Positions 31,501-46,577 are shown, numbered from the stretch's first letter. The stretch is 64,000 nucleotides of DNA from a virus (IMGVR_UViG_3300043449_002688:64001-128000), one strand, 5' to 3'. The notes: generated by a model from the letters alone, not told the origin. Made by a program: numbers and translations.

Positions 31501-31614
31501 TTTGCCGCCTTAGATTGTGTTTATTTATAATTAATATACTTGCAAAAAGACTTAAAATCAAGTTTAATTGTCTTTAATGAGAATATCTAAAATTGATACA
31601 TTTGTAAAAAATAC

Positions 31615-31642: not shown

Positions 31643-31670
31643 ATGTTTGTACCTAACCAAAGGAGCTTTT

Positions 31671-31907: not shown

Positions 31908-31919
31908 AAAGGAGCATGT

Positions 31920-32358: not shown

Positions 32359-32947
32359 AGAAATAATCTCAAAATTAGGTCCATGTAAAAATAGGTTCGA
32401 TAATTATTTAGAATATTACTCTGACTTTGATGGAACCTTACAAGAATTTATTTTGCTAGATAAAATTACTCATAAAGACAAAATTTGGGTAATTACAAAG
32501 CTTTTTGATGACAAGCAAAAAAGTAAATGGGCTATTAAATGTGCTTTTAGCGTTTTATATATATACGAAAAGAGTTTTCCGTCTGACGATAGACCAAGAA
32601 AAGCTATAGAAGCCGCACAGGAATGCCTAAGTAATCCTGCTGCTCGTGCTGCTGCTTATGCTGCTGCTGATGATGCTGCTCGTGCTGCTGCTTATGCTGC
32701 TCGTGCTGCTGCTTATGCTGCTGCTTATGCTGCTTATGCTGCTGCTTATGCTGCTGATGATGATGTTACTCGTGCTGCTCGTGCTGCTGTTGATGCTGCT
32801 CGTGCTGCTGCTTATGCTGCTGCTGATGATGCTGCTCGTGCTGCTGCTTATGCTGCTGATGATGATGTTACTCGTGCTGCTGCTTATGATACGCAAAAAC
32901 AACTTAATTTAAAGTTTGCTATCGAGGTCTTAAATGAAACGAAGTGA
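32345..32947 (+). CDS. Imm5-like (putative immunity) protein with Ala-rich repeat
   Basis: VL.IYEK.FP.DDRPRKAIEAA motif followed by AARAAAYAA repeats. Confidence 0.7.
   Translation: MRVNKEIISKLGPCKNRFDNYLEYYSDFDGTLQEFILLDKITHKDKIWVITKLFDDKQKSKWAIKCAFSVLYIYEKSFPSDDRPRKAIEAAQECLSNPAARAAAYAAADDAARAAAYAARAAAYAAAYAAYAAAYAADDDVTRAARAAVDAARAAAYAAADDAARAAAYAADDDVTRAAAYDTQKQLNLKFAIEVLNETK
32639..32890 (+). repeat. low-complexity (GCT)n-based coding repeat
   Basis: Built only from T-ending codons GCT/CGT/TAT/GAT/GTT/ACT. Confidence 0.95.
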
Positions 32948-33167
32948 AATGATTGACCATATTGTCGCTGAGATGGTAGATGCTGAAGCCAATAGAAAAT
33001 ATAGCAACGAAGCAGGCGAAGCTTATTTTAAGCGTAGAGCGGTTAGCTTACTAGATATGATTGAAGGGTTCGGTATGCTGCCTCCAGAGGTTCCGACTCT
33101 GACTATCAATGGCGTCTCTTTTATAGCTAAAAATATTTGGGAGCCTGAAGATGAAAGCACTAAATGA
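32934..33167 (+). CDS. MKRSEM-family paralogue 3
   Basis: MKRSEM...GMLPP...NIWEPEDE. Confidence 0.8.
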   Translation: MKRSEMIDHIVAEMVDAEANRKYSNEAGEAYFKRRAVSLLDMIEGFGMLPPEVPTLTINGVSFIAKNIWEPEDESTK

Positions 33168-33606
33168 AGCATTGAATGAACTATCTTGGCAATTAAAAAA
33201 AATTTCGCCATCTTTTAGTCAGGAAATTGATAGGTGTTTAACTGATTGGGCAGAAAAGAATTTTGATGTAATGTCTATCACTACGCATTTAAGCCAAGAA
33301 ATGGAGAATAGCGCTGCTGATCCCAGTTCTTTAAAAGCGCATTTATTGCAAAAAGCTCTATACGAGTCTGCAATTCAAATTGGTGCCAAATACGGTTTTG
33401 GGCAAGAAGAAGTAAAAATGCCTTGGAATCATTTAAGTAGGTCTACCGACTATTATGCTACATGGAAAGTAAATCCACATCAATATTCAAAAGAATTGTC
33501 TTTATCATTTGTTGTTTTGAAAAGACATCCTACATCATGGGGTTCTAATGAAAGCACAAGTGATTGGGTTAAAAAAATAGTAGGGGCTAAAAATGAAACG
33601 AAGTGA
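33151..33606 (+). CDS. hypothetical protein within the MKRSEM array
   Basis: Starts at the GGGAGCCTGAAG-ATG junction; ends NETK overlapping the next start. Confidence 0.7.
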   Translation: MKALNEALNELSWQLKKISPSFSQEIDRCLTDWAEKNFDVMSITTHLSQEMENSAADPSSLKAHLLQKALYESAIQIGAKYGFGQEEVKMPWNHLSRSTDYYATWKVNPHQYSKELSLSFVVLKRHPTSWGSNESTSDWVKKIVGAKNETK

Positions 33607-33838
33607 AATGATTGAGCATATTGCCGCTGAGATGGTAGATGCTGAAGCCAATAGAAAATATAGCAACGAACCCAAGCAAGATTATTATTTACGTAAAGCT
33701 ACCGGACTATTAGATATGATTCAGGGATTTGGTATGCTGCCTCCAACTGTAGATGGAATTATTGAAGTTGAAAAGACTAATGATGAGGGCCTAGCCTTAA
33801 AGCTTTGGAGTTGGGAGCCTGAAGATGAAACGAAGTGA
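33593..33838 (+). CDS. MKRSEM-family paralogue 4
   Basis: First 78 bp differ from paralogue 3 at 2 positions; WEPEDETK end. Confidence 0.8.
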   Translation: MKRSEMIEHIAAEMVDAEANRKYSNEPKQDYYLRKATGLLDMIQGFGMLPPTVDGIIEVEKTNDEGLALKLWSWEPEDETK

Positions 33839-34262
33839 GATGGTTACATATCTTCATAATTTATTAAATACGTTTGAAAATTGCAGTCTAGATCGAGCAG
33901 CAGTAGATGAAATCCTAGAAGGATTAGAGAGCATGGGCATGCAACTAGTTGAGCAGTTAGAAGTAGTCCCTTGGGAGCCTGAAGAAGGCTGGGATATATA
34001 CTTACAAAAACAAGACGAAAAAGCCGAAGCTCGTGACTTCCATATCGCACCTAGACTGAATCCTTATAAAAACACCTATGATTATGAAATGACTACTCCC
34101 ATGATAATAGCTAATAGGTATTTATGGGGAGAATCTATTAAAGATCTTGCTAACGCATATAATGTGCCTCGTGAACGAATTAGGCAAATAATAGCAAAAG
34201 AACGGCGTAGATATCAAAATTGGAAAAAAAGCCAACAAGGGTCTGAAGATGAAACGAAGTGA
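33825..34262 (+). CDS. MKRSEM-family paralogue 5 fused to sigma70 region-4-like HTH
   Basis: MKRSEM...WEPEE then SIKDLANAYNVPRERIRQIIAK. Confidence 0.75.
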   Translation: MKRSEMVTYLHNLLNTFENCSLDRAAVDEILEGLESMGMQLVEQLEVVPWEPEEGWDIYLQKQDEKAEARDFHIAPRLNPYKNTYDYEMTTPMIIANRYLWGESIKDLANAYNVPRERIRQIIAKERRRYQNWKKSQQGSEDETK

Positions 34263-34515
34263 AGTAGTAAAACAATTAACCGAACGATTTGAGCAAATGG
34301 ATTTGAATATTACTCCAGGCGTACTGGCAGAAATCGCTATGAGGATTGTTGAAGATGCAGGCATGCAACCTCCAAACATTACACTAAAAGAAATGTTCCC
34401 CGACTCGCCATTGCTTACAGCAGAAAATCATTATTATGGTGTTTGGGAAGAAGAAGATCTAAGCAGCTATCCTTCAATGACTGAAGATATCGACGACGTT
34501 CCTTTAAAAGGATAA
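34249..34515 (+). CDS. MKRSEM-family paralogue 6
   Basis: MKRSEV...EDAGMQPP...VWEEED. Confidence 0.75.
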   Translation: MKRSEVVKQLTERFEQMDLNITPGVLAEIAMRIVEDAGMQPPNITLKEMFPDSPLLTAENHYYGVWEEEDLSSYPSMTEDIDDVPLKG

Positions 34516-34517
34516 TT

Positions 34518-34736
34518 ATGAACAAACGTGAGCAAATTTTACTTGATTATGTTATTCAAAAAAGCTACACTGATCCAGAAGCTCAAGAAGTTTTAAATCA
34601 ATATGATGCTGAAAGAACAGGGCAAGAGTACAGCTCTGTAGCTTTAGTTAATTCCCTTATTAGAGATGGAAACATCAAGCTTGCTGAGCGAATTTTACAG
34701 TGTATGACTGGCGGAGATTATAAATATGAAACTTAA
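34518..34736 (+). CDS. hypothetical protein
   Basis: AAGGA RBS; operon packing. Confidence 0.6.
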   Translation: MNKREQILLDYVIQKSYTDPEAQEVLNQYDAERTGQEYSSVALVNSLIRDGNIKLAERILQCMTGGDYKYET

Positions 34737-34938
34737 AGAGCAATTAGAACTACAAAAAGACATCGAAGTTCCTTGGCATGTTTTTAGGTTTTTTGATGGT
34801 AATACAAAAAAGATTGTTTTGGCTGGAGATCAAGCAAGTTTATCTTCAGAAGGCGATTTTGGCAGCTTACAAGAGCTACAAAAAGCCGTACAATGGTATG
34901 TAGAGCAACTGGGCGGTAAAGTTAAGTGGGATAAATAA
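34726..34938 (+). CDS. hypothetical protein
   Basis: GGAG RBS; overlap with previous gene. Confidence 0.6.
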   Translation: MKLKEQLELQKDIEVPWHVFRFFDGNTKKIVLAGDQASLSSEGDFGSLQELQKAVQWYVEQLGGKVKWDK

Positions 34939-35001
34939 TCCAAGCTAAACATCTAATATTAATAGTTTATTCTATATTGGAATATGGAATAAGAACAGAG
35001 T

Positions 35002-35262
35002 GTGGTAATTAATATGGAAAGCGTACTTTGGCTATTTACAGGTACATTCTATTCTGGAGTATTGTTAACTGTAGGCTTGTTTGTATATAAGATTATTAAA
35101 AATCAACCTTCTAAAAAGCTGTTTATTAATTTCTTAAAAATCTTAGGGATTGGGTTTGTTGCTTCTATGTTTCCTTGGCTTTTGTTTGGATTACTAGGGT
35201 TCCCTTCTGTTTTAGTAGCGAGTATAGCTGTTACCTTTGTCTTTCAAAAAGAACTTTCGTGA
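35002..35262 (+). CDS. multi-TM membrane protein
   Basis: Three hydrophobic segments. Confidence 0.55.
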   Translation: MVINMESVLWLFTGTFYSGVLLTVGLFVYKIIKNQPSKKLFINFLKILGIGFVASMFPWLLFGLLGFPSVLVASIAVTFVFQKELS

Positions 35263-35392
35263 GGCTTTATGGAGCTTTTAATTGTTAGCCCTGTAATTCT
35301 TTTCTGTACTTTAGTTTTAGCAGTTGGCTTTTTAAAGTTAACTGAACATTTCGATTCCGAAGATTAATCTTTTAAAAATTAAAGGCAATAAA

Positions 35393-35617
35393 ATGAAAAC
35401 AAAGTTTTATGCAAAAGATACAAGTAACGGCGATTTTTTTCCAGAACCTAAATTAATCCAAGCCGATATGGGCATTCTTATTGAGTATGGAAACAAAAAA
35501 TTTACTATTCAAGAAGATAATTTCGGCAGGCTCATTCTAACGTCTGTCGGTTCAGGATTAGGTTTGGTTTTAACGCCCAGAAGCTGGAATTCTGTTGTTA
35601 TAAGTTCTGAAGATTAA
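35393..35617 (+). CDS. hypothetical protein
   Basis: ATG with AAGG RBS. Confidence 0.55.
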   Translation: MKTKFYAKDTSNGDFFPEPKLIQADMGILIEYGNKKFTIQEDNFGRLILTSVGSGLGLVLTPRSWNSVVISSED

Positions 35618-35702
35618 ATCTCAAAACAATACATATATAAAAAATACTTGATTATTTTTATAGTCATGGTATTCTGTATTTGTAAGTAGGTAATTAACTG
35701 AA
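35617..35702 (+). repeat. 86-bp direct repeat copy 1 containing an early promoter
   Basis: Identical to 36117-36202 except one base; contains TTGATT-16-TATTCT with TG extension. Confidence 0.9.
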
Positions 35703-35872
35703 ACTAGACATTTTTATTTGATGTGGTGATTAGTGGAGATTTATTTTGGCATCGGTTTTGGGGTTTGGCTGGGTTTATTCTCTTACCGACTTAAAAGAGA
35801 CAAGTTTAAGTATATTATGTACCATGTAACCCCTATAAGTTTTTTGAGGGGTTTTATAGGTGCGGTTTTATT

Positions 35873-36151
35873 TTGGCCCATTTGCATATTTTTAATCCAG
35901 GAGTGATTAGAAAAAATATCCAGCGTCCTCCCTGTCCGTTTAATGATTTTGGTAAAAATCGTAATCCAGAAAATGATATGATCGAAAGTTCTGGTGGTCT
36001 TTGTGGCGTTAAGCCTGGACTTAAAAGCATTGGTTGGGATTTTGAAAATCATATTGACAATTCAAAATTTGAAGTTACTTGCCCTAAATGCAAGAAGAAG
36101 CTCGAAAAGTTAGTTGAATCTCAAAACAATACATATATAAAAAATACTTGA
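35873..36151 (+). CDS. hypothetical Cys-containing protein (start uncertain)
   Basis: LCG...VTCPKC motif; runs into repeat copy 2. Confidence 0.45.
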   Translation: MAHLHIFNPGVIRKNIQRPPCPFNDFGKNRNPENDMIESSGGLCGVKPGLKSIGWDFENHIDNSKFEVTCPKCKKKLEKLVESQNNTYIKNT

Positions 36152-36202
36152 TTATTTTTATAGTCATGGTATTCTGTATTTGTAAGCAGGTAATTAACTG
36201 AA
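36117..36202 (+). repeat. 86-bp direct repeat copy 2 containing an early promoter
   Basis: Exactly 500 bp after copy 1; followed by GGAGG and ATG. Confidence 0.9.
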
Positions 36203-36212
36203 GGAGGACCCA

Positions 36213-36371
36213 ATGATCAAAGTAACTTATAAAAGCAATTATAAAGTTAAAGAAGGTCGTAAGTGGGTCGAAAAAACTTCTCAGTGGGATGAAGTGATTA
36301 AAACTGAAGCCGACGCTAGATTGCGAGCTTTGGCCCTTAACTGGCAAATCGTTAAGGTGGAGTCTGTATGA
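36213..36371 (+). CDS. hypothetical 52-aa early protein (not in ORF track)
   Basis: AAGGAGG RBS; MIKVTYKSNYKVKEGRKW...; ATGA overlap with next gene. Confidence 0.75.
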   Translation: MIKVTYKSNYKVKEGRKWVEKTSQWDEVIKTEADARLRALALNWQIVKVESV

Positions 36372-36634
36372 AAAATTTAGCACAAATGATGCAAAGAGTT
36401 TTTCAAATTAAAAAGGGCGATATTTTAACTAAAGGCGACCTTTATATAATGAATCAAGCAACTGATCAAATTTTGTCCGAATATGATACCTTAAATCCTG
36501 ATTCTTTTGATGATTCACAAAAATTAGACGAATATGATTATTTTTTGGATTATTGTGAAGAAAGTCTAACTGATAGCCTAAAAAAGGCTAGGATTAGAGA
36601 GAGTGGTTTAAAGCTCGTAGTCAATAATTCTTAA
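36368..36634 (+). CDS. hypothetical acidic protein
   Basis: GGAG RBS; ends GLKLVVNNS. Confidence 0.65.
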   Translation: MKNLAQMMQRVFQIKKGDILTKGDLYIMNQATDQILSEYDTLNPDSFDDSQKLDEYDYFLDYCEESLTDSLKKARIRESGLKLVVNNS

Positions 36635-36663
36635 AAAACAATTTTGTCGAATTTGGATATCAT

Positions 36664-36819
36664 ATGAAAAAACAAATTGATAAAAAAGTCAGAGCAAAAG
36701 CTTTAAAGGATTTGACTAAAAACGGCAAAAACCGTTATATGATTGCGCAATTAGACCGTCTCATGTCAGACAAAGAGACCCTAGAAATCCTCAACGCTTT
36801 ATTTGCTGCGACAAATTAA
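36664..36819 (+). CDS. hypothetical 51-aa protein (not in ORF track)
   Basis: MKKQIDKKVRAKALKDL... Confidence 0.5.
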   Translation: MKKQIDKKVRAKALKDLTKNGKNRYMIAQLDRLMSDKETLEILNALFAATN

Positions 36820-36856
36820 TATTGCTTTTTTAATTAAACTTTGACAGAATACACAT

Positions 36857-36933
36857 GGACACTTAGCTTAGCTGGTGAAAGCATCCCGCTCATAACGGGA
36901 GGATCGTAGGTTCGAGTCCTACAGTGTCCACCA
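36857..36933 (+). tRNA. tRNA with CAT anticodon, probably tRNA-Ile2 (lysidine type); elongator Met possible
   Basis: GGACACT/AGTGTCC acceptor with paired G1-C72 (not initiator), TCCCG-CTCATAA-CGGGA, GTAGG-TTCGAGT-CCTAC, ACCA end. Confidence 0.92.
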
Positions 36934-37199
36934 TTTTTCGCTGGAGTTTTTATGCTCTTACTTATGACTTATTTCGTTGCTATCCATACTGCCGCAGTCG
37001 TAATTGATTTGTGTAACAAATCGTTAAATTAAAGAGTTATAGCGCCTCAATTTGAGACATGGAGTTTAAGGATCTTTGCTTTTAAGCCAAAATATAGATC
37101 GAAACTCTAGTTTTAGGTCTATTTTTAAAGAAAATGGAGCGGTCTCTTTAGAAAAGAGCTAATATATAGACTAGTAACAAATGATATTTAGGAGATATT

Positions 37200-37415
37200 A
37201 TGGCAATGGGTATATTAAAATATAAACTGCCGGAAGAAAAATCAGAATTTGAATTGGCTCAAGCTGCCGGAGGTCTTTATTCAGATATTTATACCTTTGA
37301 ACAGTGGCTTCGTTCAGTATGGAAATATTCAGACAAAAAAGAGCTTACAGTTCAAGAAATTCGTGATAAATTTTACGAAGTAATGCAAACGTATCAAAAC
37401 ATAGAAGAAGATTAA
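37200..37415 (+). CDS. hypothetical phage protein
   Basis: AGGAG RBS; L.Y.LPEE..EF..A pattern common in phage ORFs. Confidence 0.7.
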   Translation: MAMGILKYKLPEEKSEFELAQAAGGLYSDIYTFEQWLRSVWKYSDKKELTVQEIRDKFYEVMQTYQNIEED

Positions 37416-37487
37416 AAGGTGTTGATATGAACGGTGTATTGGTGTTATTATTAGTAGTGTTAATCCTCATCTCTCTATCTGACTAAG

Positions 37488-37721
37488 GTGGTAAGTATGA
37501 AGCAAGGTTGGGTTCTTATTAATTGGACTGGCAATCGTTGGGTTACTAATGGGCCAAAAGTTTATGAGGACTTAAACGAAGCTAAATACGAAGCTAAGCA
37601 AGCTGAATTGCCGTACACAAGAACTCTACATATTACTTGGTTAGATTGCCTGGAAGAATGGCCTGAACCTGACTTTTTCCAAAAACTAGAAAAAGAAAGA
37701 TTAATCAATGAAAAAGAATAA
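37488..37721 (+). CDS. hypothetical protein
   Basis: ORF with probable ATG at 37497. Confidence 0.55.
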   Translation: MVSMKQGWVLINWTGNRWVTNGPKVYEDLNEAKYEAKQAELPYTRTLHITWLDCLEEWPEPDFFQKLEKERLINEKE

Positions 37722-37881
37722 TGTTTATTACATGTCTGCTTTTATTAGCCAAACTCGTGAAATGGCAGTAAAACATTCCTCTCTTTTGAAAAACATAAAA
37801 GACTATGCTGAGACTGGCGAAAACAAATATTTGGATAAATCTAAAATGCGCAAACCTAATGGGTCTTTACCTAAGCGCTAA
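37708..37881 (+). CDS. hypothetical 57-aa basic protein (not in ORF track)
   Basis: MKKNNVYYMSAFISQ...; 14-nt overlap with previous gene. Confidence 0.5.
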   Translation: MKKNNVYYMSAFISQTREMAVKHSSLLKNIKDYAETGENKYLDKSKMRKPNGSLPKR

Positions 37882-37939
37882 TATTTATCTTACGCAAATG
37901 CCGTAAGATTTTACGCAATCTTAATAAAACAATTTAATT

Positions 37940-37981
37940 TACAATCCCTTGCAGATGGATTTGCGAGGGTTGTACCCTTTT
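37940..37981 (+). terminator. hairpin / probable terminator
   Basis: TACAA-T-CCCTTGCAGA / TTTGCGAGGG-TTGTA stem with G.U pairs, T run shortly after. Confidence 0.55.
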
Positions 37982-38002
37982 GATACGTTCATAAAAATAT
38001 AT

Positions 38003-38031
38003 TTGCAAAAGTTACACAGCAATCATATACT
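38003..38031 (+). promoter_or_regulatory. sigma70-type promoter
   Basis: TTGCAA-17 nt-TATACT upstream of AGGAGG RBS. Confidence 0.6.
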
Positions 38032-38059
38032 GATTATGCACTAACCAAAAGGAGGAATT

Positions 38060-38341
38060 ATGCGTATCGCTCTAGACAATAATTGCCCAAGCTGTGTAAT
38101 TAAAAAACTAGAAAAAAATGGCCACACTGTAGTTTTATATGCTAGACATGAAATGGATGAAGATTGGGTAAGTACAGCTCTTTCTCTTGGCGCAGATCTA
38201 TTTATATCAAATGATCTAGATATCGTTAATATGCTTGATCGTTGGAATGAATCAGCAGCTTTCATTGAGTTGCCTCAACGAGTATCTGGCTACAGACTTT
38301 CAGAATGGATTGTCAAACAAGTAAAACTTTTGGCTGCATAA
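38060..38341 (+). CDS. PIN-like domain protein (DUF5615/Mut7-C type)
   Basis: MRIALDNNCP..V...L...GH.V....DEDW...A......ISND pattern. Confidence 0.7.
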   Translation: MRIALDNNCPSCVIKKLEKNGHTVVLYARHEMDEDWVSTALSLGADLFISNDLDIVNMLDRWNESAAFIELPQRVSGYRLSEWIVKQVKLLAA

Positions 38342-38436
38342 TAATTGTCTTGTTTTGATATAATTGTAAAAATATAATTGTTTTTGAAATAAAAGTATAA
38401 TAATATAAATAAAGAACACAAACAGAGGAGTTTAGA

Positions 38437-39387
38437 ATGGCACATGAAGTAGAAAATATGATGTACGTTGGTTCACGCCCTTGGCATGGTCTTGGCCGCG
38501 CTTTCGAGGTTCCACCTACGTTAGAAGAGGCTATCATTGCTGCTGGACTCAACTGGAATGTCGGTCTGAGAAAGTTACAGACTGTAGACACTATGGAAGC
38601 TGTTTCAGCTATGGCGACTTACCGAGAGACCGATAACCGTATCCTTGGGGTAGTAGGCCCTAATTATCGCCCGCTGCAGAACTCAGAAGCTTTTGATTTC
38701 TTCCGTCCGTTTATTGATGCTAACGAAGCTTCAATTGAGACTGCAGGCTCTTTGCGTGATGGTCAACGAGTGTTTGTTTTAGCTAAAATTAACCGTGACC
38801 CAATGGTTGTAAAAGGTAATGACGTAGTAGACAAATACGTTCTACTTTCTAACTCACATGATGGCACTTTGGCCGTTAGAGTTGGGTTTACGCCAATCCG
38901 AGTAGTTTGCAATAATACTTTGACTTTGGCTCATAACGACAAAGCATCAAGACTACTTCGCGTCAAGCATAGTGGTAATTTGGTACAAAACTTGGAAAAA
39001 ATCCAAGAAGTAATGAACTTGGCTAACGCTGAGTTTGAAGCTACTGCAGAACAGTACAGAGTTTTGGCTTCTAAGCAAATTAGCTCGCAAGATCTGGAAA
39101 AGTACGTTAAAATCGTATTTGCCCAGAAAAAGACTCTGGAAGAAAAGTCTGTAGAAGAAATTAATTCACGAGTTATTAGCAGCGTACTTCCTTTGTTTGA
39201 GCAAGGTCGTGGAAACGACATGCAAGAGATTAAAGGCACTTACTGGGCTGCGTACAATGCAGTAAATGAATACCTTCAATATGAGCGTGGAGAAACAGAG
39301 CAAAGCCGATTTGACAGCTTGTGGTTTGGTTCTTCTGCACAGTTGAACAAAAAAGCTTTGGAAACAGCTTTGATAATGGCTGCTTAA
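38437..39387 (+). CDS. DUF932-family phage/plasmid protein (TIGR03299-like)
   Basis: MAHEVE, PWHGLG, Y.PLQNSEAFDFF, ETAGSL..G, NSHDG, TPIRVVCNNTL, GTYWAAYNAV.EY. Confidence 0.9.
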   Translation: MAHEVENMMYVGSRPWHGLGRAFEVPPTLEEAIIAAGLNWNVGLRKLQTVDTMEAVSAMATYRETDNRILGVVGPNYRPLQNSEAFDFFRPFIDANEASIETAGSLRDGQRVFVLAKINRDPMVVKGNDVVDKYVLLSNSHDGTLAVRVGFTPIRVVCNNTLTLAHNDKASRLLRVKHSGNLVQNLEKIQEVMNLANAEFEATAEQYRVLASKQISSQDLEKYVKIVFAQKKTLEEKSVEEINSRVISSVLPLFEQGRGNDMQEIKGTYWAAYNAVNEYLQYERGETEQSRFDSLWFGSSAQLNKKALETALIMAA

Positions 39388-39459
39388 TTAATTGATTTTT
39401 AAAATGTGATGGATTACACTAAACCCATGGATGGGTTTTTAATTAATGAGGTAAAAAAA

Positions 39460-39651
39460 ATGAGCGATAAGGTTCCAGATTTTAATCCAGAAGATGCAGT
39501 TGAACTAAGCGAACAGGAATCGGCTGCATTTGGAAATTTAGTTAAACAAATGGATGAAGCTATGAAAGCTGGCGATGATGAGCTTTTGGTATCATTGAGA
39601 GGTCAAATGGACGAGTTCTTCAAGCAAGTTTCTGAAAGCAGAACAAAGTAA
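39460..39651 (+). CDS. small acidic helical protein
   Basis: GAGGT RBS, ATG 39460; QMDEAMKAGDDELLVSLR. Confidence 0.65.
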   Translation: MSDKVPDFNPEDAVELSEQESAAFGNLVKQMDEAMKAGDDELLVSLRGQMDEFFKQVSESRTK

Positions 39652-39697
39652 TATGGCTAAACGCGCCTTTGAAGTTTCTTCTGTTTTCGGAGTTTTC

Positions 39698-39892
39698 ATG
39701 GGGAAAGTTATTTCATTGGATGAGTTTAAACGCCTCAAGGAACGAGGCGAATCTATTCAGAAGCTACTAAAAATAGCCATGGAAGCGGCGGAGAACGGTA
39801 ACGAAGAGCTACTTTTGGCCATGGAAGATGAGCTAGAAGAATTATTAGAATTAGAATTAGAATTAAATTTAATTAAAGACAAGGATGAATAA
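39698..39892 (+). CDS. small acidic helical protein, similar to the preceding one
   Basis: GGAG RBS, ATG 39698; GKVISLDEFK start; AMEAAENGNEELLLAM. Confidence 0.65.
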   Translation: MGKVISLDEFKRLKERGESIQKLLKIAMEAAENGNEELLLAMEDELEELLELELELNLIKDKDE

Positions 39893-39967
39893 CAGGGAGC
39901 AAGGAAGCTCCCGTTGTAAGCATTTAGCAGGACGCTATTTTGAGCAGGACGCTCAGTGCTTATGGTT

Positions 39968-39996
39968 CCCCAGCTCCGTAAAAAGAGCTGGGTTTT
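39968..39996 (+). terminator. intrinsic terminator
   Basis: CCCAGCTC / GAGCTGGG then TTTTT. Confidence 0.85.
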
Positions 39997-40001
39997 TATT
40001 T

Positions 40002-43000
40002 TTAATTTGAAATTAAACTAACTGTAATATCTGCTGTAGGGTCAACAATGTAAGCTTTTTCAAATGCAGCAACTGGTATTAGATCATTTGCAGAAGAGTA
40101 GGACGGAGAAGTTACAGCTACTGCTACAACGCCAGGAATATAGTTGGCTGCAGATACCATTTCGCTGATAGAAACAGATTGACCTACTCCAAGAGCATTA
40201 ACATAACCAGCAATTGCAGCTTTTACGTTTTCTCTAATTTCAGAGAAAGGTACTCCAGTTTTAACTCGAACTGTAAATGCAGCAGTAATTCTACGAACAA
40301 TTGCTTGTTTAATATCAATGTCAGTACCTGCTGCCCTAACACCAGGATAAGTTAATGGATCTGATGAATCGCCATAAATAATACGGTTAAGCTCTTTAAC
40401 AAGACCTTGATAATAAATATAAGAATCTATACCAAAATTAAGCGATTGATTAAATCCAAGCTTTCCAGATACAGACAATGTTGCACCTAAAGAAGCACTG
40501 ACTTTATCCATCAGTTCTGGGGTATTAAAAAGAACTGTAGCTTGAGAAGCATTGGTCGGTCCAACTGCAAAGACTTTTTTGTATAAAGTTATCGGATCTT
40601 TTTCTTCTACATTTACATTTAAATATTCTCCGCCCAATGCAGCAGAAATGCTTTGGTTGAAAGTAGGAGATATGTAAATTCTACTAGGAGTTGGGAATGG
40701 AGTGTTATTATCTGCAGGTCCCAATACTGTATATCTGCCATAGTTTTGTGGACTCAAAATGTTTGTAGCAATATTTAAAACATCTCCTGGCATAACTGAA
40801 TCGTATGAATAAAAATTGATATTGTTTACGTCGCCAACTTGAGCAATTTCTTCTACGCCATTGTCGTTTTTAATCCAGAAGGCATTTCCAAACACTCGAA
40901 CAACTTGGAAAGTTCCTAGATTGCCTTTGTTGAATTCGCGCTTTTCCCAATAAGTGCTATTTGCAGCATCAGGAAGATTGCCAATATTTCCGTTAACGAG
41001 AGAAGCATAGATAGTTCCAGCATAGAAAACTCTTTGATCAACTGCATAAGTAGTAGAATTAGACCAATCAGTTGTAGCGTTTTCTTCTGAAATTCTTACC
41101 CAATCACCTTCTTTTACTCCGCCAGCTAGCAAACCAAGAGAACTTCCAGCGATTGGAATATAAGCCATGAAGTCGCCATGTTTTTCTATCTTAAACTTAA
41201 CAGTAGTATTTAGAGTAATAGTGCGTTTAGTCTGGAAAGTACCAGGACCAGTGATATCGACCCATCCTCCGGCGTTATTTAAAGAAAGGGTTGTTGTGGT
41301 GTCAAACCCAAGAGATTTGTTTTGTCGAACTGTATTTTTTATAGTTACCCATTGATTAGGCAACAAACCTTTTTTAGTTTCAAAAGGTACTTGTATTGCA
41401 CCAAGTTTATTGTTAACTTTTCGGCCTGAGCCTGAAGTAGCGATTTCAACTCTATTAGAAGTTCCACCAGCAATTTGAATGCTGCCAGTTGTACCAAATG
41501 TTTTAGTAGAAATCTGTAATTGCTTTCCGTATTTTGAAAGATTAATATTAGCTACATTTGAAAGACCAGTAACTGATAGTTTATTCCAAAACCTAACAAG
41601 TTGTTCAGATGTAACTGCTACAAGTCTAATTTCTTCGCCAATTTCAGGCTCTGTTACCCAAGATTTTTTAACCTGGAACATTGGGTCATATTGAGCGGCA
41701 GCAAGGTTAGTAGTTTTGATCGAGTTTTCGCCATCGCTCATCATTAAATATTTAGTTGAACCGATTACAGTTCCAACAATAGTATTCGTAGAACTGCTCG
41801 TAGCAATTATTGAAGATTGAGTCTCTATAATGTTTTTAGCTAAAGCAGGGTCATAATAAGAATCTATAACCACATAGCTGCCACTATAAGATTGATAAGA
41901 AGGTGTGGCTATTGTTATCTTAATATCTGCTCCTTTTGGAAGCAGAGTATTTGTTGCAAATCTTACAAATCTAGAGCTAGATCTAATGTAGAGATTTGTA
42001 ACCGTAGTGCTTATGTATCCGCTAGAAAGTAATATATCTTCAGTAGAAAGATCTATTATATCTTCTGTCGTTCCATCAGGGCCGATTTCTGCCAAAGCTC
42101 TATTTGGTAAATAAGTTGCTACATAATCTACTATATCTTGAGCTGTAGTGTTACATGAACCAAACTGTAGGTTTTCGTCAGCTTGCCCGCCTAAACATCT
42201 AGCTAGATAACCTTGATCTACACATTCACCGTAAGTACCTCCAGTAGCCGAAGCATTTCCACCAACTGGGTAAGTAAATGTAAACATGCTTGAGTTGTAA
42301 GTATTTACTGTAAAAGTTCCATTCAAAGATTCAACAGTAGTTTGCCAGTAAGCAGTTGCAGAACTTGGTATGTTGTTTGTGTTGCTTGCCTGTAATGAGA
42401 TATAAGTTTGGCCTAAATATTCAACTAAATCATTAACTCCATAAGTTGTAGCACTACTCCAATCCGCCAAATCACTATTACTAATACGAACAATATCTCC
42501 AACTAATAGACCTACAGTTGAAGCTGTATTAACTGTAACAGTATTACCTACTTTAGTAATAGAAGTAATATTTGTTAGCGCAGAAGGTGCTTTAGATTGG
42601 AAGTCTACTCGTCCAGTGTTAATGCTTCCAGCAGTAGATCCAGGTTTAATGTACTGAAATTGATTTGTTCCCAAAACTCTATAAACTGCAGTTAATCCAT
42701 TATAAGGAGTGCCTGCATTTGAGACTAAAATAACATTTCCTTCGCTTAAATTATGGGCCGTAGAAGTTGTAATAGTTACAAGATTGTTGGAATGAACACC
42801 GTAAGTAATGTTACTTCCAATTCCTAAACTAGGAGCTTTAACTGTGAACTTAGTTGAGTTTACTATACTGTCAATAGCATAAGTTCCATTAATTGGGCTA
42901 TTAATTCCATCAGAAAGTACAGTGCCTGCTAAGCCAATTCTTTGTCCTTTTATAGCATTGTGAGCAGCAGTTGTTTCTACAGTAATAACCCCATTTTTAT

Positions 43001-46000
43001 TTTCTAAGCTAGTAAAGTATAATTTATCAGAAACATAATCGCCAGTTGGAACTTCAACAGTAAATGAAGTTGGGGTAACATTTGTAACTTTACCTGTAAT
43101 ATTTTTATTAGCAGCTAAGAAATCCGTTGTTCCGATATTAACGACATCGCCTACATGAACTTCTGCTGCGCCAACGTCAAATCCAGTGAATGTACCTACT
43201 TCATAAGTAAAGGTAAGAATATCTTTTGCTCCGCTAGTAGTTTTTTCTATAGTAAAGGCTGTAGTATTATCCCAATTTGGAAGTCTTGGCTCTACGATTG
43301 GTAATGTAATGGCTAAATCAATTACTTCTGAAGCAGTAAGAGTATGAGTAAGTCCGGTTACATCGTTTGATTTAGGGTAAATAAAGCCTACTCGCATTTT
43401 ATTGCCAGAAGGACCAAAGTCTGCTGCCTTCATCTTCAAGCTAAAAGTATCTCCTGTAAGATTTACATTTGCTTGTCTAAATACTTTAAAGTTATCAAAA
43501 ACAAATCCATTAAAAGAAGATGGACTGTTTAAGGGTAAGTTTGATTCTAAGTCTGTTGCTGAAAAATCTTGTTGCGTAGGAGCTGAATTACCTGATACTA
43601 AAAGTTTACGTGAAACTGGTAAAGTATAAGTTTTAACTTGAGCGTCTTGATCGGCAACAACTAAAGAAGAATCTTCAGAATCAAATTTATAAGAAGACCT
43701 TAAGAAATACCTGTCAGAACTTTGTATATATGATCTTTTAGCAAAATTAGGTAAATTACTGTTATATGTACTAGGAACCAAATTTGGATTTAAATATGAA
43801 GGTGGTAAATAATTCAAATAATTATTAGCATCGTTATATTCAACTGCAAAAATCCTTTCATTTTTATTGCTTTCAGGAATAATAGTTTCAGTTGTAGTAT
43901 TATTTTTTGGAACTATTTCCAAGAAGTCTGCTTCATCTCCACCTAAATTTTTGTAATTAGAAACAGTAATAGTTGTTCCGTCAATTCCAGTCCCAAGCGT
44001 ACCATATGTAAATGACGGAAACCCAACTTCAGAATCTGTTTTTGCCACAAATCCGTAATGTGATGGGATGTTTTTTCTAGCCACATTTAATGGTAAGTTC
44101 AATGCTTGTCCGCCTTGATCCATTGCTGCTATAAAAATTTCACCATTTGAATCTAAACTTATTGTAGAAAATCTAATTTTAGAGCCAATGATTTCTGCAT
44201 CTACTCCAGATAGCTGTATTTTTGTTTCATTAATAAAATCAACTAATGACCCTGGAGTAAAGTTAAGCTCTTGCATAGGGGCAGAAGATCTAATGATAGC
44301 TATTCGGTTTGTATTAACAGTAACAGAGCCAGAAATTGGGCGAGAAACTGCACCGTCATCAACAATAATTTGACCTAATGAAGCTTCTTCTATTCTCCAG
44401 AATCCTTGAAAATTTTTTAAAACAGTTGGATCATCTGGATTAGCCCAAACTAATAACCAATCATTTTTTTCTGCTAGATCAAATCCTTCAGGAGAACCGC
44501 CCAATGATTCAGAATTAATAGTAAGTTTTGTTCCTGATTTACTAAAAGTAAGAGTAGAATTTATATTTAATTTATTTGGAATATTTACACTATCGCCATC
44601 CATCAAAAACCATATTCTACCATAAGAAGAAATACCATTTAAAGGTGCGCTAGTTACATTTCCTCTTGCGTATTGAGACCCAGCAGTAATTTTGTCTTTT
44701 GGTTCTAATGGAATAGTAAATCCGATTTGCCCAGTTTGTTTGTTAAGAGTAAAATCTGATTGTTGGCCTGTTGAGCTTAAATCTGCTTCAGCATTAAAGA
44801 TTTGAGGTAAGAGTGTTCCGCCTGTAAAAAGTAAAGAAGCTTCACTGCTAACTCCTCTGGCAGAAGTAAATGCCAATCTCTCACCTACTATTGTTGTAAT
44901 AACCCCAGGCATTTTAGCGTTAAATACTTTAGCCCAAGTTTCCAGAGAAGTTGTTGATGAAACAGAAGCTTGTGGATCAATTTTTTGAAAATCTACGTTA
45001 TTAAATGTAACTGTAATTTCTTCTGTATTATCTACAATATAAGAAAGAGTTACACCGGCTGAAATACCTACTAACCAATCTGATTTTAAATTAGTATAAA
45101 TTCTAGCAACTTTGCCATCTTGGAATAAAGGTATGTCATTTTTATAAAGTCTGATTGTTAAAATTTCTTCTTTTGGAAAATTAAAGATGTCGTTAGCATC
45201 TTCGCCTTGTGTATAATCTACAACTTTAATTGAGTTAACGTCTCTGTCTCTTGGATAAAGTGCTAGGCTAGTTCCACCATTTAATGTAGCAGCGTTAAAG
45301 TTTAGTGAAGTATTTCCATTAATACTGGACATAACTTCAAAACAAGTTGCAGAACTTGGTACTGTAAAGTCTGCAATATTAAAATTATGCACAGTTTGAA
45401 CGCCGTTTATTTCTACTGCTAAAGAAGGTGAGTTTTCTAAATTATAAGGACCTGGAGTATAATTTTGTACAGTAGCTTGAGCGATTGGTTTTTGTCGAAG
45501 CTGAACTTCTATTTCTCCACCTACAGCTTCATCTACTACCGTTTCAAATTTTGAACCAACAAAATTAGGCTCGTATCCAGTTCCGTCATCAAATATTAAT
45601 GCTGCTGTAGAATCAGGATATTCAATTACTTTTGCTGAAGCGACTTTTTTTAGCTCATCTTTAGCGATTACTCCAATTGAATAATATTCAATTGCAGAAA
45701 TAATGCCTTTTGCTTTTGCTTGTTCATAGCTTTTAATTCTAGCTCTAATATCGTCATCAGTATCAGCATCTTTACCGTTAATAAATGCATTTTCGTTAAA
45801 AATAGAAGCAGAGAAAGACATTCCAACAGCTTCTTTAATTGCACCGCGAGGTACATTCCCTGATGTTCCTGGTTGTTCACATTTTACAGGAACATTCGTT
45901 ATGGTAGTTTCTCCATCAATGATTGTAACTTTTGTAGTTGTTTTAAATACAGAAGGACTACCATTAACATCAGGTGCAGTTCTAACAGAAGCTCCTACAT

Positions 46001-46577
46001 TAATAATTCTATTTCCGCCTTGAGCTAAAACTACAGCCTCTCCAATATTATGAAATTTAGTAGTAGGAGAAGTTGGGGCAAGGTTAATAGACCAGAAAGC
46101 GCCGCCTGATTCAGGTTGTGCGCTTATGTAATCTAAAGGACCTTCAGAGTTAGCTGTTCCGCGTCCTATGTAAATTTTTCCAGTAGGACTAAAAGTAGAT
46201 GCATCAGAAACGTATATAACAGATGAGCCAGCAATTGGAGCTGGTTGACCTGAATAAACTCTAGTGCTTCTTTTTTGAAAAGATGTATCTGTAATAGTTA
46301 CTTGGCCAGTAGCTGCAGTTGCGGCAAAAATTGGCACTTTTTTATCAGAAGCCAATCTTTGTAAAGCTTCACCACTAGCTCGATCTACTGAAAGAGCATC
46401 GATCATCCCAATCATGTCTGCCGAAGCCTTGAACATATTTTGAGAAATTGCTTCTATAAGCTGAGCAAGAACTGAACTTTGGTTAAGGTCAATATCTTTT
46501 CTAAGTCTCGCAAGAATTCCGTCAATTAAATCGCCTGCAATTTGTTCTTTAGACCGTAGCTGTGGAATTTCAGACAT
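40002..46577 (-). CDS. giant baseplate J/gp47-like wedge protein with inserted beta and carbohydrate-binding-like modules
   Basis: ASGEALQRLA, AATGQVTI, C..PGTSGNVP.GAI, NGKDADTDDDIRAR at the N-terminus; YVNALGVGQSV.ISE....IPGV at the C-terminus; two W...TTY..D.V.Y.G..Y modules. Confidence 0.85.
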   Translation of the reverse strand: MSEIPQLRSKEQIAGDLIDGILARLRKDIDLNQSSVLAQLIEAISQNMFKASADMIGMIDALSVDRASGEALQRLASDKKVPIFAATAATGQVTITDTSFQKRSTRVYSGQPAPIAGSSVIYVSDASTFSPTGKIYIGRGTANSEGPLDYISAQPESGGAFWSINLAPTSPTTKFHNIGEAVVLAQGGNRIINVGASVRTAPDVNGSPSVFKTTTKVTIIDGETTITNVPVKCEQPGTSGNVPRGAIKEAVGMSFSASIFNENAFINGKDADTDDDIRARIKSYEQAKAKGIISAIEYYSIGVIAKDELKKVASAKVIEYPDSTAALIFDDGTGYEPNFVGSKFETVVDEAVGGEIEVQLRQKPIAQATVQNYTPGPYNLENSPSLAVEINGVQTVHNFNIADFTVPSSATCFEVMSSINGNTSLNFNAATLNGGTSLALYPRDRDVNSIKVVDYTQGEDANDIFNFPKEEILTIRLYKNDIPLFQDGKVARIYTNLKSDWLVGISAGVTLSYIVDNTEEITVTFNNVDFQKIDPQASVSSTTSLETWAKVFNAKMPGVITTIVGERLAFTSARGVSSEASLLFTGGTLLPQIFNAEADLSSTGQQSDFTLNKQTGQIGFTIPLEPKDKITAGSQYARGNVTSAPLNGISSYGRIWFLMDGDSVNIPNKLNINSTLTFSKSGTKLTINSESLGGSPEGFDLAEKNDWLLVWANPDDPTVLKNFQGFWRIEEASLGQIIVDDGAVSRPISGSVTVNTNRIAIIRSSAPMQELNFTPGSLVDFINETKIQLSGVDAEIIGSKIRFSTISLDSNGEIFIAAMDQGGQALNLPLNVARKNIPSHYGFVAKTDSEVGFPSFTYGTLGTGIDGTTITVSNYKNLGGDEADFLEIVPKNNTTTETIIPESNKNERIFAVEYNDANNYLNYLPPSYLNPNLVPSTYNSNLPNFAKRSYIQSSDRYFLRSSYKFDSEDSSLVVADQDAQVKTYTLPVSRKLLVSGNSAPTQQDFSATDLESNLPLNSPSSFNGFVFDNFKVFRQANVNLTGDTFSLKMKAADFGPSGNKMRVGFIYPKSNDVTGLTHTLTASEVIDLAITLPIVEPRLPNWDNTTAFTIEKTTSGAKDILTFTYEVGTFTGFDVGAAEVHVGDVVNIGTTDFLAANKNITGKVTNVTPTSFTVEVPTGDYVSDKLYFTSLENKNGVITVETTAAHNAIKGQRIGLAGTVLSDGINSPINGTYAIDSIVNSTKFTVKAPSLGIGSNITYGVHSNNLVTITTSTAHNLSEGNVILVSNAGTPYNGLTAVYRVLGTNQFQYIKPGSTAGSINTGRVDFQSKAPSALTNITSITKVGNTVTVNTASTVGLLVGDIVRISNSDLADWSSATTYGVNDLVEYLGQTYISLQASNTNNIPSSATAYWQTTVESLNGTFTVNTYNSSMFTFTYPVGGNASATGGTYGECVDQGYLARCLGGQADENLQFGSCNTTAQDIVDYVATYLPNRALAEIGPDGTTEDIIDLSTEDILLSSGYISTTVTNLYIRSSSRFVRFATNTLLPKGADIKITIATPSYQSYSGSYVVIDSYYDPALAKNIIETQSSIIATSSSTNTIVGTVIGSTKYLMMSDGENSIKTTNLAAAQYDPMFQVKKSWVTEPEIGEEIRLVAVTSEQLVRFWNKLSVTGLSNVANINLSKYGKQLQISTKTFGTTGSIQIAGGTSNRVEIATSGSGRKVNNKLGAIQVPFETKKGLLPNQWVTIKNTVRQNKSLGFDTTTTLSLNNAGGWVDITGPGTFQTKRTITLNTTVKFKIEKHGDFMAYIPIAGSSLGLLAGGVKEGDWVRISEENATTDWSNSTTYAVDQRVFYAGTIYASLVNGNIGNLPDAANSTYWEKREFNKGNLGTFQVVRVFGNAFWIKNDNGVEEIAQVGDVNNINFYSYDSVMPGDVLNIATNILSPQNYGRYTVLGPADNNTPFPTPSRIYISPTFNQSISAALGGEYLNVNVEEKDPITLYKKVFAVGPTNASQATVLFNTPELMDKVSASLGATLSVSGKLGFNQSLNFGIDSYIYYQGLVKELNRIIYGDSSDPLTYPGVRAAGTDIDIKQAIVRRITAAFTVRVKTGVPFSEIRENVKAAIAGYVNALGVGQSVSISEMVSAANYIPGVVAVAVTSPSYSSANDLIPVAAFEKAYIVDPTADITVSLISN

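What the first reader, a model, noticed from the sequence alone, without database searches (positions are those of the whole stretch)
39880..39996. Candidate phage-encoded CsrA/RsmA sponge RNA (3' GGA-hairpin cluster)
Seen: the GC-rich 3' UTR folds into GGGAGC-AAGGAA-GCTCCC (39895-39912), TAGC-AGGAC-GCTA (39925-39937) and TGAGC-AGGAC-GCTCA (39941-39955). The last two are enclosed by GTAAGCAT/GTGCTTAT, preceded by CAAGGATG and CAGGGAG, and followed by an intrinsic terminator. Known: CsrB/RsmY/RsmZ sRNAs are arrays of CAGGA(U/A/C)G-type motifs in short hairpin loops ending in a terminator, and they titrate the global translational regulator CsrA/RsmA. Inference: the phage makes its own CsrA decoy to rewire host post-transcriptional control. 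I do not know of a characterised phage-encoded CsrB mimic.
Basis: partly seen in the sequence, partly recalled or inferred. Interest (0 to 1): 0.88.

Follow-up and report, generated by a model that had tools for sequence, protein, structure and literature searches.

The report
Phage 3' RNA with CsrA-type hairpins
The last ~105 bases of an early-type gene cluster in an uncultured 155-kb phage fold into three hairpins that display the docking motif of the bacterial regulator CsrA, followed by a terminator. It therefore looks like a small virus-borne CsrA decoy, but it has no relatives and the host is unknown, so this remains an attractive, untested idea.

Summary
Window 39893-39998 (+) contains hairpins 39895-39912, 39925-39937 and 39941-39955. 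Their loops are AAGGAA, AGGAC and AGGAC. The last two hairpins are enclosed by an 8-bp stem, and a strong + strand terminator follows. The two AGGAC hairpins match the CsrB repeat CAGGA(U/C/A)G exactly and lie 17 nt apart.

The clustering is unusual. Seven CA(N)GGANG motifs fall in 530 nt, against at most three anywhere in ten strand-genomes of this phage and four relatives. Plain GGA richness, however, is explained by composition (P 0.09).

Of 4227 Rfam families, PrrB/RsmZ gives the lowest E-value (20.5 bits, gathering 44). rsmX shares the architecture (16.4 bits, gathering 56). Both are below threshold. A bacterial multi-GGA sRNA next to csrA, found here, carries the same GAGC-AGGAC-GCUC hairpin twice and is also missed by Rfam.

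Points against: there is no homologue anywhere, so no covariation test is possible. The upstream ORF is an orphan and the host is unknown. The predicted ensemble partly prefers another fold. The minus strand resembles Bacillaceae-1 RNA.

Verdict: a plausible CsrA-binding 3' module (about 0.35), not shown. This scan has flagged similar phage GGA-hairpin candidates in at least 44 other genomes.

The parts
39893..39998 (+). Whole 3' RNA module: HP1, a three-way junction holding HP2 and HP3, and the terminator. It starts 1 nt after the stop codon of ORF 39653-39892.
   Evidence: Best Rfam matches are PrrB_RsmZ at 39894-39997 (20.5 bits) and rsmX at 39888-39995 (16.4 bits). Covariance model R1 finds it once in the whole genome.
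39895..39912 (+). HP1: 6-bp G+C stem with loop AAGGAA. On the minus strand the same hairpin plus TGTTATTCAT is a candidate terminator for the baseplate gene.
   Evidence: Pair probability 1.0. Listed as a minus-strand terminator-like site.
39916..39963 (+). Outer 8-bp stem (39916-39923 / 39956-39963) enclosing HP2 and HP3. Two terminal G.U pairs form only on the + strand.
   Evidence: Pair probabilities 0.96-1.0. The minus-strand fold keeps only 6 pairs. The topology matches the rsmX model.
39925..39937 (+). HP2: UAGC-AGGAC-GCUA. Contains CAGGACG, which equals the CsrB repeat consensus CAGGA(U/C/A)G.
   Evidence: Alternative pairing with HP3 is predicted in isolation.
39941..39955 (+). HP3: UGAGC-AGGAC-GCUCA. 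The 11-nt core is identical to HP2. The flanking pair changes U-A to G-C, one compensatory difference between the two copies.
   Evidence: The same 13-nt hairpin occurs twice in a bacterial multi-GGA sRNA next to csrA (L378).
39969..40003 (+). Intrinsic terminator: 8-bp stem, 8-nt loop, T-run. It works on the + strand only, because there is no A-tract upstream.
   Evidence: It is the only strong + strand terminator after the gene array at about 31600-39892.
39880..39899 (+). Two further GGA motifs: CAAGGATG (end of the ORF) and CAGGGAG (its GGA is paired in the HP1 stem).
   Evidence: unpaired probabilities 0.81/0.45/0.44 for the first and 0.00 for the second.
39653..39892 (+). ORF P0001 (79 aa, acidic, helical-looking), an orphan gene. 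It holds hairpin 39731-39749 (CGCCUC-AAGGAAC-GAGGCG) and two CAUGGAAG motifs that come from an A-M-E peptide repeat.
   Evidence: (only itself among 5.8 billion proteins).
39460..39651 (+). ORF P0002 (63 aa), with SD GAGG 8 nt upstream of the ATG at 39460.
   Evidence: A weak phrog_17179 match was obtained on the longer reading.
39421..39438 (+). Terminator-like hairpin after the DUF932 gene: AAACCCA-UGGA-UGGGUUU plus a U-run. The loop context is CAUGGAUG.
40002..46577 (-). Convergent 2191-aa baseplate-J-like gene. The late-type motif CCTAATCT lies 37 nt upstream of its start. Its transcript would read antisense through the module.

Best explanation
The module is the structured 3' end of transcripts from the plus-strand array of small early-type genes (about 31600-39892). 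It ends at the only strong plus-strand terminator of that array.

It displays three apical-loop A(N)GGA sites. Two of them are exact CsrB-type CAGGACG hairpins spaced 17 nt apart, a distance a single CsrA dimer can bridge.

Most likely this is a docking module for a CsrA/RsmA-family protein of the host. As a nuclease-resistant 3' fragment, or as part of the abundant early mRNA, it would hold one or two CsrA dimers per molecule. That would lower free CsrA (decoy action). Alternatively it could use bound CsrA in cis to stabilise the phage message.

Shown: the motifs, the fold options, the terminator, the clustering, and the resemblance to RsmX/RsmZ.
Inferred: transcription, processing, CsrA binding, and any effect on the host.
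For: 1. All three non-terminator hairpins present A(N)GGA in the loop, and two equal the CsrB repeat consensus. CLIP-seq shows that CsrA binds A(N)GGA in apical loops (PMC5207318).
2. The motif cluster is a genome-level outlier. There are 7 CA.?GGA.G in 530 nt, against a maximum of 3 in ten strand-genomes. Local shuffles give 0.34. Three strict GGA-loop hairpins in 120 nt are unique.
3. In an unbiased scan of 4227 Rfam families the lowest E-value is PrrB_RsmZ (E 0.0032, full-length model). rsmX aligns with the same outer-stem-plus-two-GGA-hairpins topology.
4. A U-tract terminator and two G.U pairs favour the plus strand.
5. HP2 and HP3 keep an identical 11-nt core while the flanking pair covaries U-A to G-C.
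6. A Modicisalibacter genome has at least 7 paralogous ~130-nt multi-GGA sRNA genes. One lies beside csrA and one has a perfect TGTAAG-N6-CTTACA box. The csrA-adjacent copy carries GAGC-AGGAC-GCUC twice. Rfam finds nothing in that csrA-adjacent locus at E <= 0.01, so a sub-threshold Rfam score does not exclude the class.
7. The phage uses Shine-Dalgarno-led initiation (54% of starts against 9% for the control). csrA occurs in 36 of 81 sampled genomes of Myxococcota, the host phylum of the only cultured relative.
Against: - No homologue exists in 5 related phage genomes, 150+ related loci, IMG/VR, INPHARED, GTDB genomes or metagenomes. Conservation and covariation are therefore untestable.
- Closer relatives (DUF932 84% and 81% identical) carry other small genes instead.
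- Rfam scores are well below gathering thresholds (20.5 against 44; 16.4 against 56).
- There are only 3 exposed sites, and HP1 may simply be the minus-strand terminator.
- In the isolated RNA the two small hairpins have about 8% predicted occupancy.
- The raw GGA excess is compositional, and two of the upstream motifs come from a peptide repeat.
- The host is unknown. No csrA gene is present in the phage or in 5 relatives.
- No promoter of its own was found.
- In E. coli, lowering csrA protects cells from phages, so the benefit to a phage is not obvious (PMC7553319).
Confidence: 0.35

Rival explanations
1. This is an ordinary structured intergenic region between convergent genes. HP1 terminates the minus-strand (late baseplate) transcript and the 39969-39992 hairpin terminates the plus-strand transcript. 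The junction between them merely stabilises both 3' ends against exonucleases. The GGA loops are incidental.
For: The two genes converge and are 109 nt apart. HP1 plus TGTTATTCAT is scored as a minus-strand terminator, and the other hairpin works on the plus strand only. The structure is stable on both strands. The element is not conserved in any relative. This scan has raised the same idea in at least 44 other genomes.
Against: It does not explain two identical CAGGACG loops with a covarying closing pair. It also does not explain why this is the only place in ten strand-genomes with three GGA-loop hairpins. Only 9 of 113 terminator-like hairpins in the genome have GGA in or at the loop.
Confidence: 0.3
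2. The two identical AGGAC hairpins are tandem operators for a different RNA-binding protein, from the phage or the host, that controls stability or 3' processing of the early transcript. Examples would be a translational-repressor-like or coat-like hairpin binder.
For: There is an exact 11-nt duplication with structure-preserving flanks. It occurs in a single locus. It lies in a region of orphan genes that could encode the partner.
Against: No RNA-binding domain was found in the neighbouring ORFs, which are acidic. No other copy of the hairpin sits at any 5' leader in the genome. The motif is already an exact match to a known protein's site.
Confidence: 0.15
3. The functional strand is the minus strand. 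The 3' UTR of the late baseplate mRNA carries two CGUCCUG loops (UCCU, anti-Shine-Dalgarno-like), as in Bacillaceae-1 RNA. These would pair with SD regions, or with the plus-strand transcript.
For: Bacillaceae-1 (RF01690) scores 21.4 bits, E 0.035, with both loops matching the consensus. The minus-strand MFE contains both small hairpins and has the lower z-score. The baseplate stop codon is 9 nt from the hairpin at 39969-39992, which has no U-tract on that strand, so read-through is likely.
Against: The score is below gathering (35), and the outer-stem topology of that family is not matched. The two G.U pairs become A.C on the minus strand. The five further CA(N)GGANG motifs upstream are plus-strand features. 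The function of Bacillaceae-1 is itself unknown.
Confidence: 0.1
4. This is a DNA-level element: direct repeats bound by a DNA-binding protein, or a PeSL-like stem-loop cassette that mediates shuffling of orphan genes.
For: The region is hyperplastic: relatives carry different small genes here. PeSL cassettes flank orphan genes in T4-type phages (PMC2839356).
Against: PeSLs are repeated many times per genome and carry an early promoter. This element is single-copy and no promoter was found.
Confidence: 0.05

Closest known systems
RsmX (Rfam RF02144, Pseudomonas; clan CL00106)
   Same: About 110 nt long. It has a 5' hairpin with an AGGAA-type loop, an outer stem enclosing two GGA-loop hairpins, and a 3' terminator. 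It aligns end to end with the model.
   Different: The score is 16.4 bits against gathering 56. One model hairpin is missing. There is no GacA-box promoter. It lies in a 3' UTR of a 33.5% GC phage, not a stand-alone chromosomal gene.
PrrB/RsmZ (RF00166) and CsrB/CsrC
   Same: Repeated CAGGA(U/C/A)G in short hairpin loops, ending in a terminator. It gives the best E-value of all 4227 families.
   Different: The score is 20.5 bits against gathering 44. There are 3 exposed sites, against about 8 in RsmZ and 18-22 in CsrB (own knowledge). No binding data exist.
Multi-GGA sRNA genes of Modicisalibacter xianhensis (found here: L378-L384)
   Same: The hairpin GAGC-AGGAC-GCUC is identical to HP3 and occurs twice in the csrA-adjacent copy (L378). 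Length is about 130 nt and a terminator follows. Rfam finds no match in L378, the copy that was scanned.
   Different: These have 6 or more GGA sites, own promoters with a GacA-type box, at least 7 paralogues, and one lies next to csrA. No sequence similarity exists beyond the hairpin. Their function is itself inferred, not tested.
Bacillaceae-1 RNA (RF01690)
   Same: On the minus strand there are two hairpins with CGUCCUG loops, the reverse complement of the CsrA site.
   Different: The score is below gathering (21.4 against 35). The stem topology differs. The family is restricted to Bacillaceae and its function is unknown.
3'-UTR-derived sRNAs and CsrA-binding mRNAs/sRNAs (e.g. McaS, the 16 extra CsrA-bound sRNAs in Salmonella CLIP-seq, PMC5207318)
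   Same: A few GGA-loop hairpins on an RNA that shares its terminator with an mRNA.
   Different: Those are cellular RNAs. No phage example was found in five literature searches.
PeSL cassettes of T4-type phages (PMC2839356)
   Same: Stem-loops flanking orphan early genes in a hyperplastic region.
   Different: This element is single-copy, has no promoter, and is not a repeated sequence family in this genome.

Membership tests
Csr/Rsm decoy sRNAs (Rfam clan CL00106) | Several A(N)GGA motifs exposed in apical hairpin loops | tested here: met
   The loops of HP1, HP2 and HP3 are AAGGAA, AGGAC and AGGAC. Caveat: HP2 and HP3 have about 0.08 pair probability in the isolated RNA but are in the MFE in the 611-nt context.
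Csr/Rsm decoy sRNAs (Rfam clan CL00106) | Rho-independent terminator at the 3' end | tested here: met
   Stem 39969-39992 plus a T-run, plus strand only.
Csr/Rsm decoy sRNAs (Rfam clan CL00106) | Score at or above the curated gathering threshold of a member family | tested here: not met
   PrrB_RsmZ scores 20.5 against 44. rsmX scores 16.4 against 56. Nothing passes at gathering. A likely bacterial member is also missed.
Csr/Rsm decoy sRNAs (Rfam clan CL00106) | Stand-alone gene with its own (GacA/UvrY-dependent) promoter | tested here: not met
   The module starts 1 nt after a stop codon. No sigma-70-like site was found in 39400-39900 at the tool's threshold, and there is no TGTAAG-N6-CTTACA box.
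Csr/Rsm decoy sRNAs (Rfam clan CL00106) | Conservation of GGA loops with covarying stems in relatives | tested here: inconclusive
   No homologue was found anywhere. The only covariation is one compensatory pair between the two internal copies.
Csr/Rsm decoy sRNAs (Rfam clan CL00106) | Host encodes CsrA/RsmA | tested here: inconclusive
   The host was not identified. The phage uses SD sites. csrA is present in 36 of 81 Myxococcota genomes, the host phylum of the only cultured relative.
Csr/Rsm decoy sRNAs (Rfam clan CL00106) | High-affinity, GGA-dependent binding and titration of CsrA | not testable with these tools
   This needs EMSA or reporter assays.
Bacillaceae-1 RNA (RF01690) | Two hairpins with RUCCU loops, and a score at or above gathering | tested here: not met
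   The loops match on the minus strand, but the score is 21.4 against 35 and the long first stem of the model is not formed.
PeSL regulatory cassettes | Many near-identical copies per genome, each with an early promoter plus a stem-loop | tested here: not met
   Model R1 finds a single copy in the whole genome. There is no promoter.

The most novel reading that the evidence does not exclude
A lytic, Mx1-related environmental phage delivers a compact CsrA/RsmA decoy as the nuclease-resistant 3' end of its early operon. It would titrate the host's global translational regulator during takeover. This would be the first virus-borne Csr/Rsm-type sponge, and one that evolved independently of the bacterial sRNA families.
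Probability: 0.25. Interest if true: 0.8.

Novelty: new variant of a known kind. Interest (0 to 1): 0.5.

Why it matters
CsrA/RsmA controls carbon storage, motility, biofilm and virulence in many bacteria. In all known cases it is antagonised by chromosomal sRNAs or by proteins such as FliW.

A phage-encoded RNA decoy would add post-transcriptional takeover through a global RNA-binding protein to the list of phage strategies. It would also give a minimal (about 105 nt, 3-site) natural sponge for study.

The result also carries a methodological warning. Rfam's Csr/Rsm models miss a likely bacterial member, so absence of a match says little. Conversely, GGA-loop hairpins are proposed often by eye (at least 44 genomes in this scan) and need binding data.

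Tried and rejected
- Homologue searches:
  - Megablast and blastn against INPHARED found nothing.
  - An exact two-hairpin pattern in IMG/VR found nothing.
  - Blastn in 5 related genomes found only low-complexity hits.
  - Covariance model R1 over about 1.4 Mb of related loci found only itself plus two weak unrelated hits, which I inspected.
- The same pattern in GTDB genomes and metagenomes gave 99 and 120+ hits. Their gap lengths of 4, 7, 10 ... 19 nt show that most are in-frame tandem repeats of G+C-rich genomes. None is a homologue of this element, although one Modicisalibacter hit is a GGA-rich sRNA that shares the HP3 hairpin.
- Two Acinetobacter lwoffii hits are repeats upstream of a copper-ATPase promoter, not an Rsm RNA.
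- Synteny:
  - Relatives found through the baseplate C-terminus have other genes or a tRNA at this junction.
  - Relatives found through DUF932 (up to 84% identity) have different small ORFs downstream.
  - The 79-aa ORF has no relative at all.
- Host identification did not succeed:
  - The GMP-reductase-like gene has no close genome hit. Its best named homologue is 50% identical (Rickettsiales).
  - The Atlas look-alikes of the DUF2827 protein point only vaguely to Pseudomonadota and to viruses.
  - The NCBI and JGI relatives are metagenome contigs without names.
- A csrA gene in the phage or in 5 relatives: none.
- The idea that GGA loops are a general habit of this phage's terminators is rejected: 9 of 113.
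- A 1-mismatch copy at 18203 lies inside a coding region.
- The 41-aa ORF 39885-40010 has no usable SD and overlaps the terminator. I did not pursue it.

Full report
Context. The window is bases 64001-128000 of a 154,801-bp IMG/VR virus record, 96% complete and 33.5% G+C. The only cultured relative is Myxococcus phage Mx1. Its terminase is 34% identical over 98% of the length, its baseplate-J protein is 35% identical, and its DnaE is 30% identical. Several uncultured 155-160-kb genomes are more closely related.

The finding lies between two convergent genes. One is the plus-strand ORF 39653-39892 (79 aa). The other is the minus-strand 2191-aa baseplate-J-like gene 40002-46577. The minus-strand gene is preceded by one of eleven equally oriented CCTAATCT motifs that mark the minus-strand structural genes. 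The plus-strand side is the end of an array of small genes running from about 31600 to 39892. That array holds a sigma-like protein, an Imm5-like protein, a tRNA-Met and DUF932. Its only strong plus-strand terminator is the one in this finding.

Observation.
- HP1 at 39895-39912, loop AAGGAA.
- HP2 at 39925-39937 and HP3 at 39941-39955, both with loop AGGAC and an identical 11-nt core.
- An enclosing 8-bp stem, 39916-39923 paired with 39956-39963.
- A terminator at 39969-39992 followed by a T-run.

The stretch folds better than shuffles on both strands (z -4.4 on plus, -5.7 on minus). There is one correction. For the isolated 106-nt RNA the proposed fold (-42.9 kcal/mol) is 1.8 kcal/mol above the MFE, in which the two repeats pair with each other. 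HP2 and HP3 then have only about 0.08 pair probability. In a 611-nt context the MFE does contain both small hairpins. HP1, the outer stem and the terminator are predicted with probability near 1.

Is it more than chance? I used a literature-defined pattern, CA.?GGA.G. It covers the CsrB repeat CAGGA(U/C/A)G and the RsmE site CANGGANG.
- The plus strand of the genome has 35 matches, and 7 of them fall in 39426-39953.
- Dinucleotide shuffles of the local 611 nt give 0.34, and none of 3000 reach 7. For the 106-nt UTR alone the count is 3 against 0.10 (P 3e-4).
- On the minus strand of this phage and on both strands of four related genomes, the largest 600-nt cluster is 3.
- Three strict GGA-loop hairpins within 120 nt occur nowhere else in these ten strand-genomes.
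- Only 9 of 113 terminator-like hairpins in the genome have GGA at the loop.

Two cautions apply. The plain GGA count (18 against 14.1 +/- 2.5) is explained by local composition. And two of the upstream motifs come from an A-M-E peptide repeat in the ORF. The signal therefore rests mainly on the UTR hairpins. Supporting structures are the DUF932 terminator loop (39421-39438, CAUGGAUG) and a strong in-ORF hairpin with an AAGGAAC loop (39731-39749).

Comparison with known RNA families. Nothing reaches a gathering score.
- With permissive filters on 131 nt, the lowest E-value among 4227 families is PrrB/RsmZ. It scores 20.5 bits, E 0.0032, with the full model aligned at 39894-39997.
- rsmX scores 16.4 bits. 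It aligns end to end with the same topology: a 5' hairpin with an AGGAA loop, an outer stem enclosing two GGA hairpins, and a terminator.
- On the minus strand, Bacillaceae-1 RNA scores 21.4 bits (gathering 35). Its CGUCCUG loops are the reverse complement of the CsrA site.

So the RNA resembles Rsm decoys more than anything else in Rfam, but it is not a member of any family by Rfam's criteria. A by-product of the pattern scan shows how little that failure means. A Modicisalibacter xianhensis genome has at least seven paralogous ~130-nt genes, each with about six GGA motifs followed by a terminator. One lies beside a csrA gene and one has a perfect TGTAAG-N6-CTTACA box. The csrA-adjacent copy contains GAGC-AGGAC-GCUC twice, the same hairpin as HP3. 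Rfam reports nothing in that csrA-adjacent locus at E <= 0.01.

Which strand? Three points favour the plus strand:
- The U-tract follows the 39969-39992 hairpin only on that strand.
- The outer stem has two G.U pairs that would be A.C on the other strand.
- The extra motifs lie upstream on that strand.

The minus-strand baseplate transcript has no good terminator before HP1. It therefore probably reads through the module and ends at HP1 (GGGAGC-UUCCUU-GCUCCC followed by a U-rich tail). HP1 thus has a mundane second explanation, and both strands may be transcribed at different times.

Relatives. I found no homologue of the RNA. The searches are itemised under Tried and rejected. They covered INPHARED, IMG/VR, five related genomes, about 1.4 Mb of related loci with covariance model R1, and GTDB genomes and metagenomes. 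In the last two, the pattern hits were mostly unrelated in-frame tandem repeats.

Relatives found through the baseplate gene have other genes at this junction. Relatives whose DUF932 is 84% and 81% identical carry different small ORFs downstream. The 79-aa ORF is an orphan among 5.8 billion proteins. The element sits in a hyperplastic, orphan-gene region and is, as far as the data go, unique. The only structural covariation is the U-A to G-C exchange in the pair flanking the identical cores of HP2 and HP3.

Host. I could not identify it.
- The phage uses Shine-Dalgarno sites. An SD-like motif lies upstream of 54% of starts against 9% of controls. This argues against SD-poor hosts such as Bacteroidota.
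- Neither the phage nor five relatives encode CsrA.
- csrA is present in 36 of 81 sampled genomes of Myxococcota, the host phylum of Mx1. The one host lead does not exclude the hypothesis. However, the 33.5% G+C makes a Myxococcus-like host unlikely.

Mechanism proposed. Transcripts of the early-type array end at 39995-40003. The last ~105 nt are G+C-rich and closed by a terminator, so they would persist as a stable 3' fragment, as known 3'-UTR-derived sRNAs do. HP2 and HP3 present two optimal sites 17 nt apart, within the range one CsrA dimer can bridge (own knowledge of Mercante et al. 2009). HP1 and CAAGGAUG offer a second pair. Binding would sequester one or two dimers per RNA. I put the CsrA-docking reading at 0.35 and the strict decoy reading at about 0.25. 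The rivals are:
- a plain double-terminator junction (0.30);
- an operator for another RNA-binding protein (0.15);
- a minus-strand UCCU-loop RNA (0.10);
- a DNA-level or PeSL-like element (0.05). The PeSL reading is weakened because the element is single-copy and has no promoter.

Novelty. Five full-text searches found no characterised phage-encoded CsrA-sequestering RNA. In E. coli, csrA knock-down gives broad protection from phages (PMC7553319), so the direction of any benefit is not self-evident. Within this scan the same idea has been raised 46 times in at least 44 genomes, with follow-ups ranging from 'probably a decoy' to 'not supported'. As a pattern seen by eye it is common. What sets this case apart is the exactness of the two CsrB-type hairpins and the RsmX-like architecture. 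What it lacks is any comparative or host evidence.

Noticed in passing
window 39421-39438; L147 ~3727-3744; L152 ~3955-3978; L001 ~2276-2301; L150 ~3963-3980: The hairpin right after the DUF932 gene has GGA in its loop in 4 of the 5 closest relatives (loops UGGA, AGGAAU, UGGGAAACUG, AAGGGACG). The stems are unrelated. The 81%-identical relative L150 has AGUAA instead. Among more distant DUF932 loci only 5 of 54 show it.
   Followed up: partly
L378 1690-1835 (G006:C28 ~327890-328035) and L379-L384: Modicisalibacter xianhensis carries at least seven paralogous ~130-nt genes. Each has about six GGA motifs and a terminator. One is divergent from a csrA gene and one has a perfect TGTAAG-N6-CTTACA box. 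These are very likely Rsm-type decoys, yet Rfam gives no match at E <= 0.01 in L378, the csrA-adjacent locus that was scanned.
   Followed up: partly
window 39731-39749: There is a strong 6-bp G+C hairpin with loop AAGGAAC inside the orphan ORF 39653-39892. Its GGA is predicted to be fully unpaired.
   Followed up: partly
window 32637-32888: A 250-nt tandem array (period 12, consensus CTGCTGCTCATG, 22 copies, 73% matches) lies inside the Imm5-like ORF 32345-32947.
   Followed up: no
window 3360, 6686, 8555, 14382, 24959, 27911, 46614, 49707, 55636, 56526, 59187: AGATTAGG (CCTAATCT on the minus strand) occurs 11 times, all in one orientation, against 2.5 expected. None lies in the plus-strand array 31600-39900. 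This fits a late-promoter motif for the minus-strand structural genes.
   Followed up: partly
L001 2615-3010: A related viral contig has about 400 nt of GGTCTN hexamer tandem repeats downstream of its DUF932 gene. The repeats span two near-duplicate short ORFs.
   Followed up: no
L150 4540-4735: A 200-nt gene-free, G+C-rich stretch lies between small ORFs in the 81%-identical DUF932 relative. It may be another structured RNA. It was not examined.
   Followed up: no
whole record G000: The phage belongs to an uncultured clade of 137-160-kb genomes (35-53% G+C in the four genomes fetched in full). The only cultured member of this clade is Myxococcus phage Mx1. It encodes GroEL, a split DnaE, ribonucleotide reductase and a GMP-reductase-like enzyme.
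   Followed up: partly
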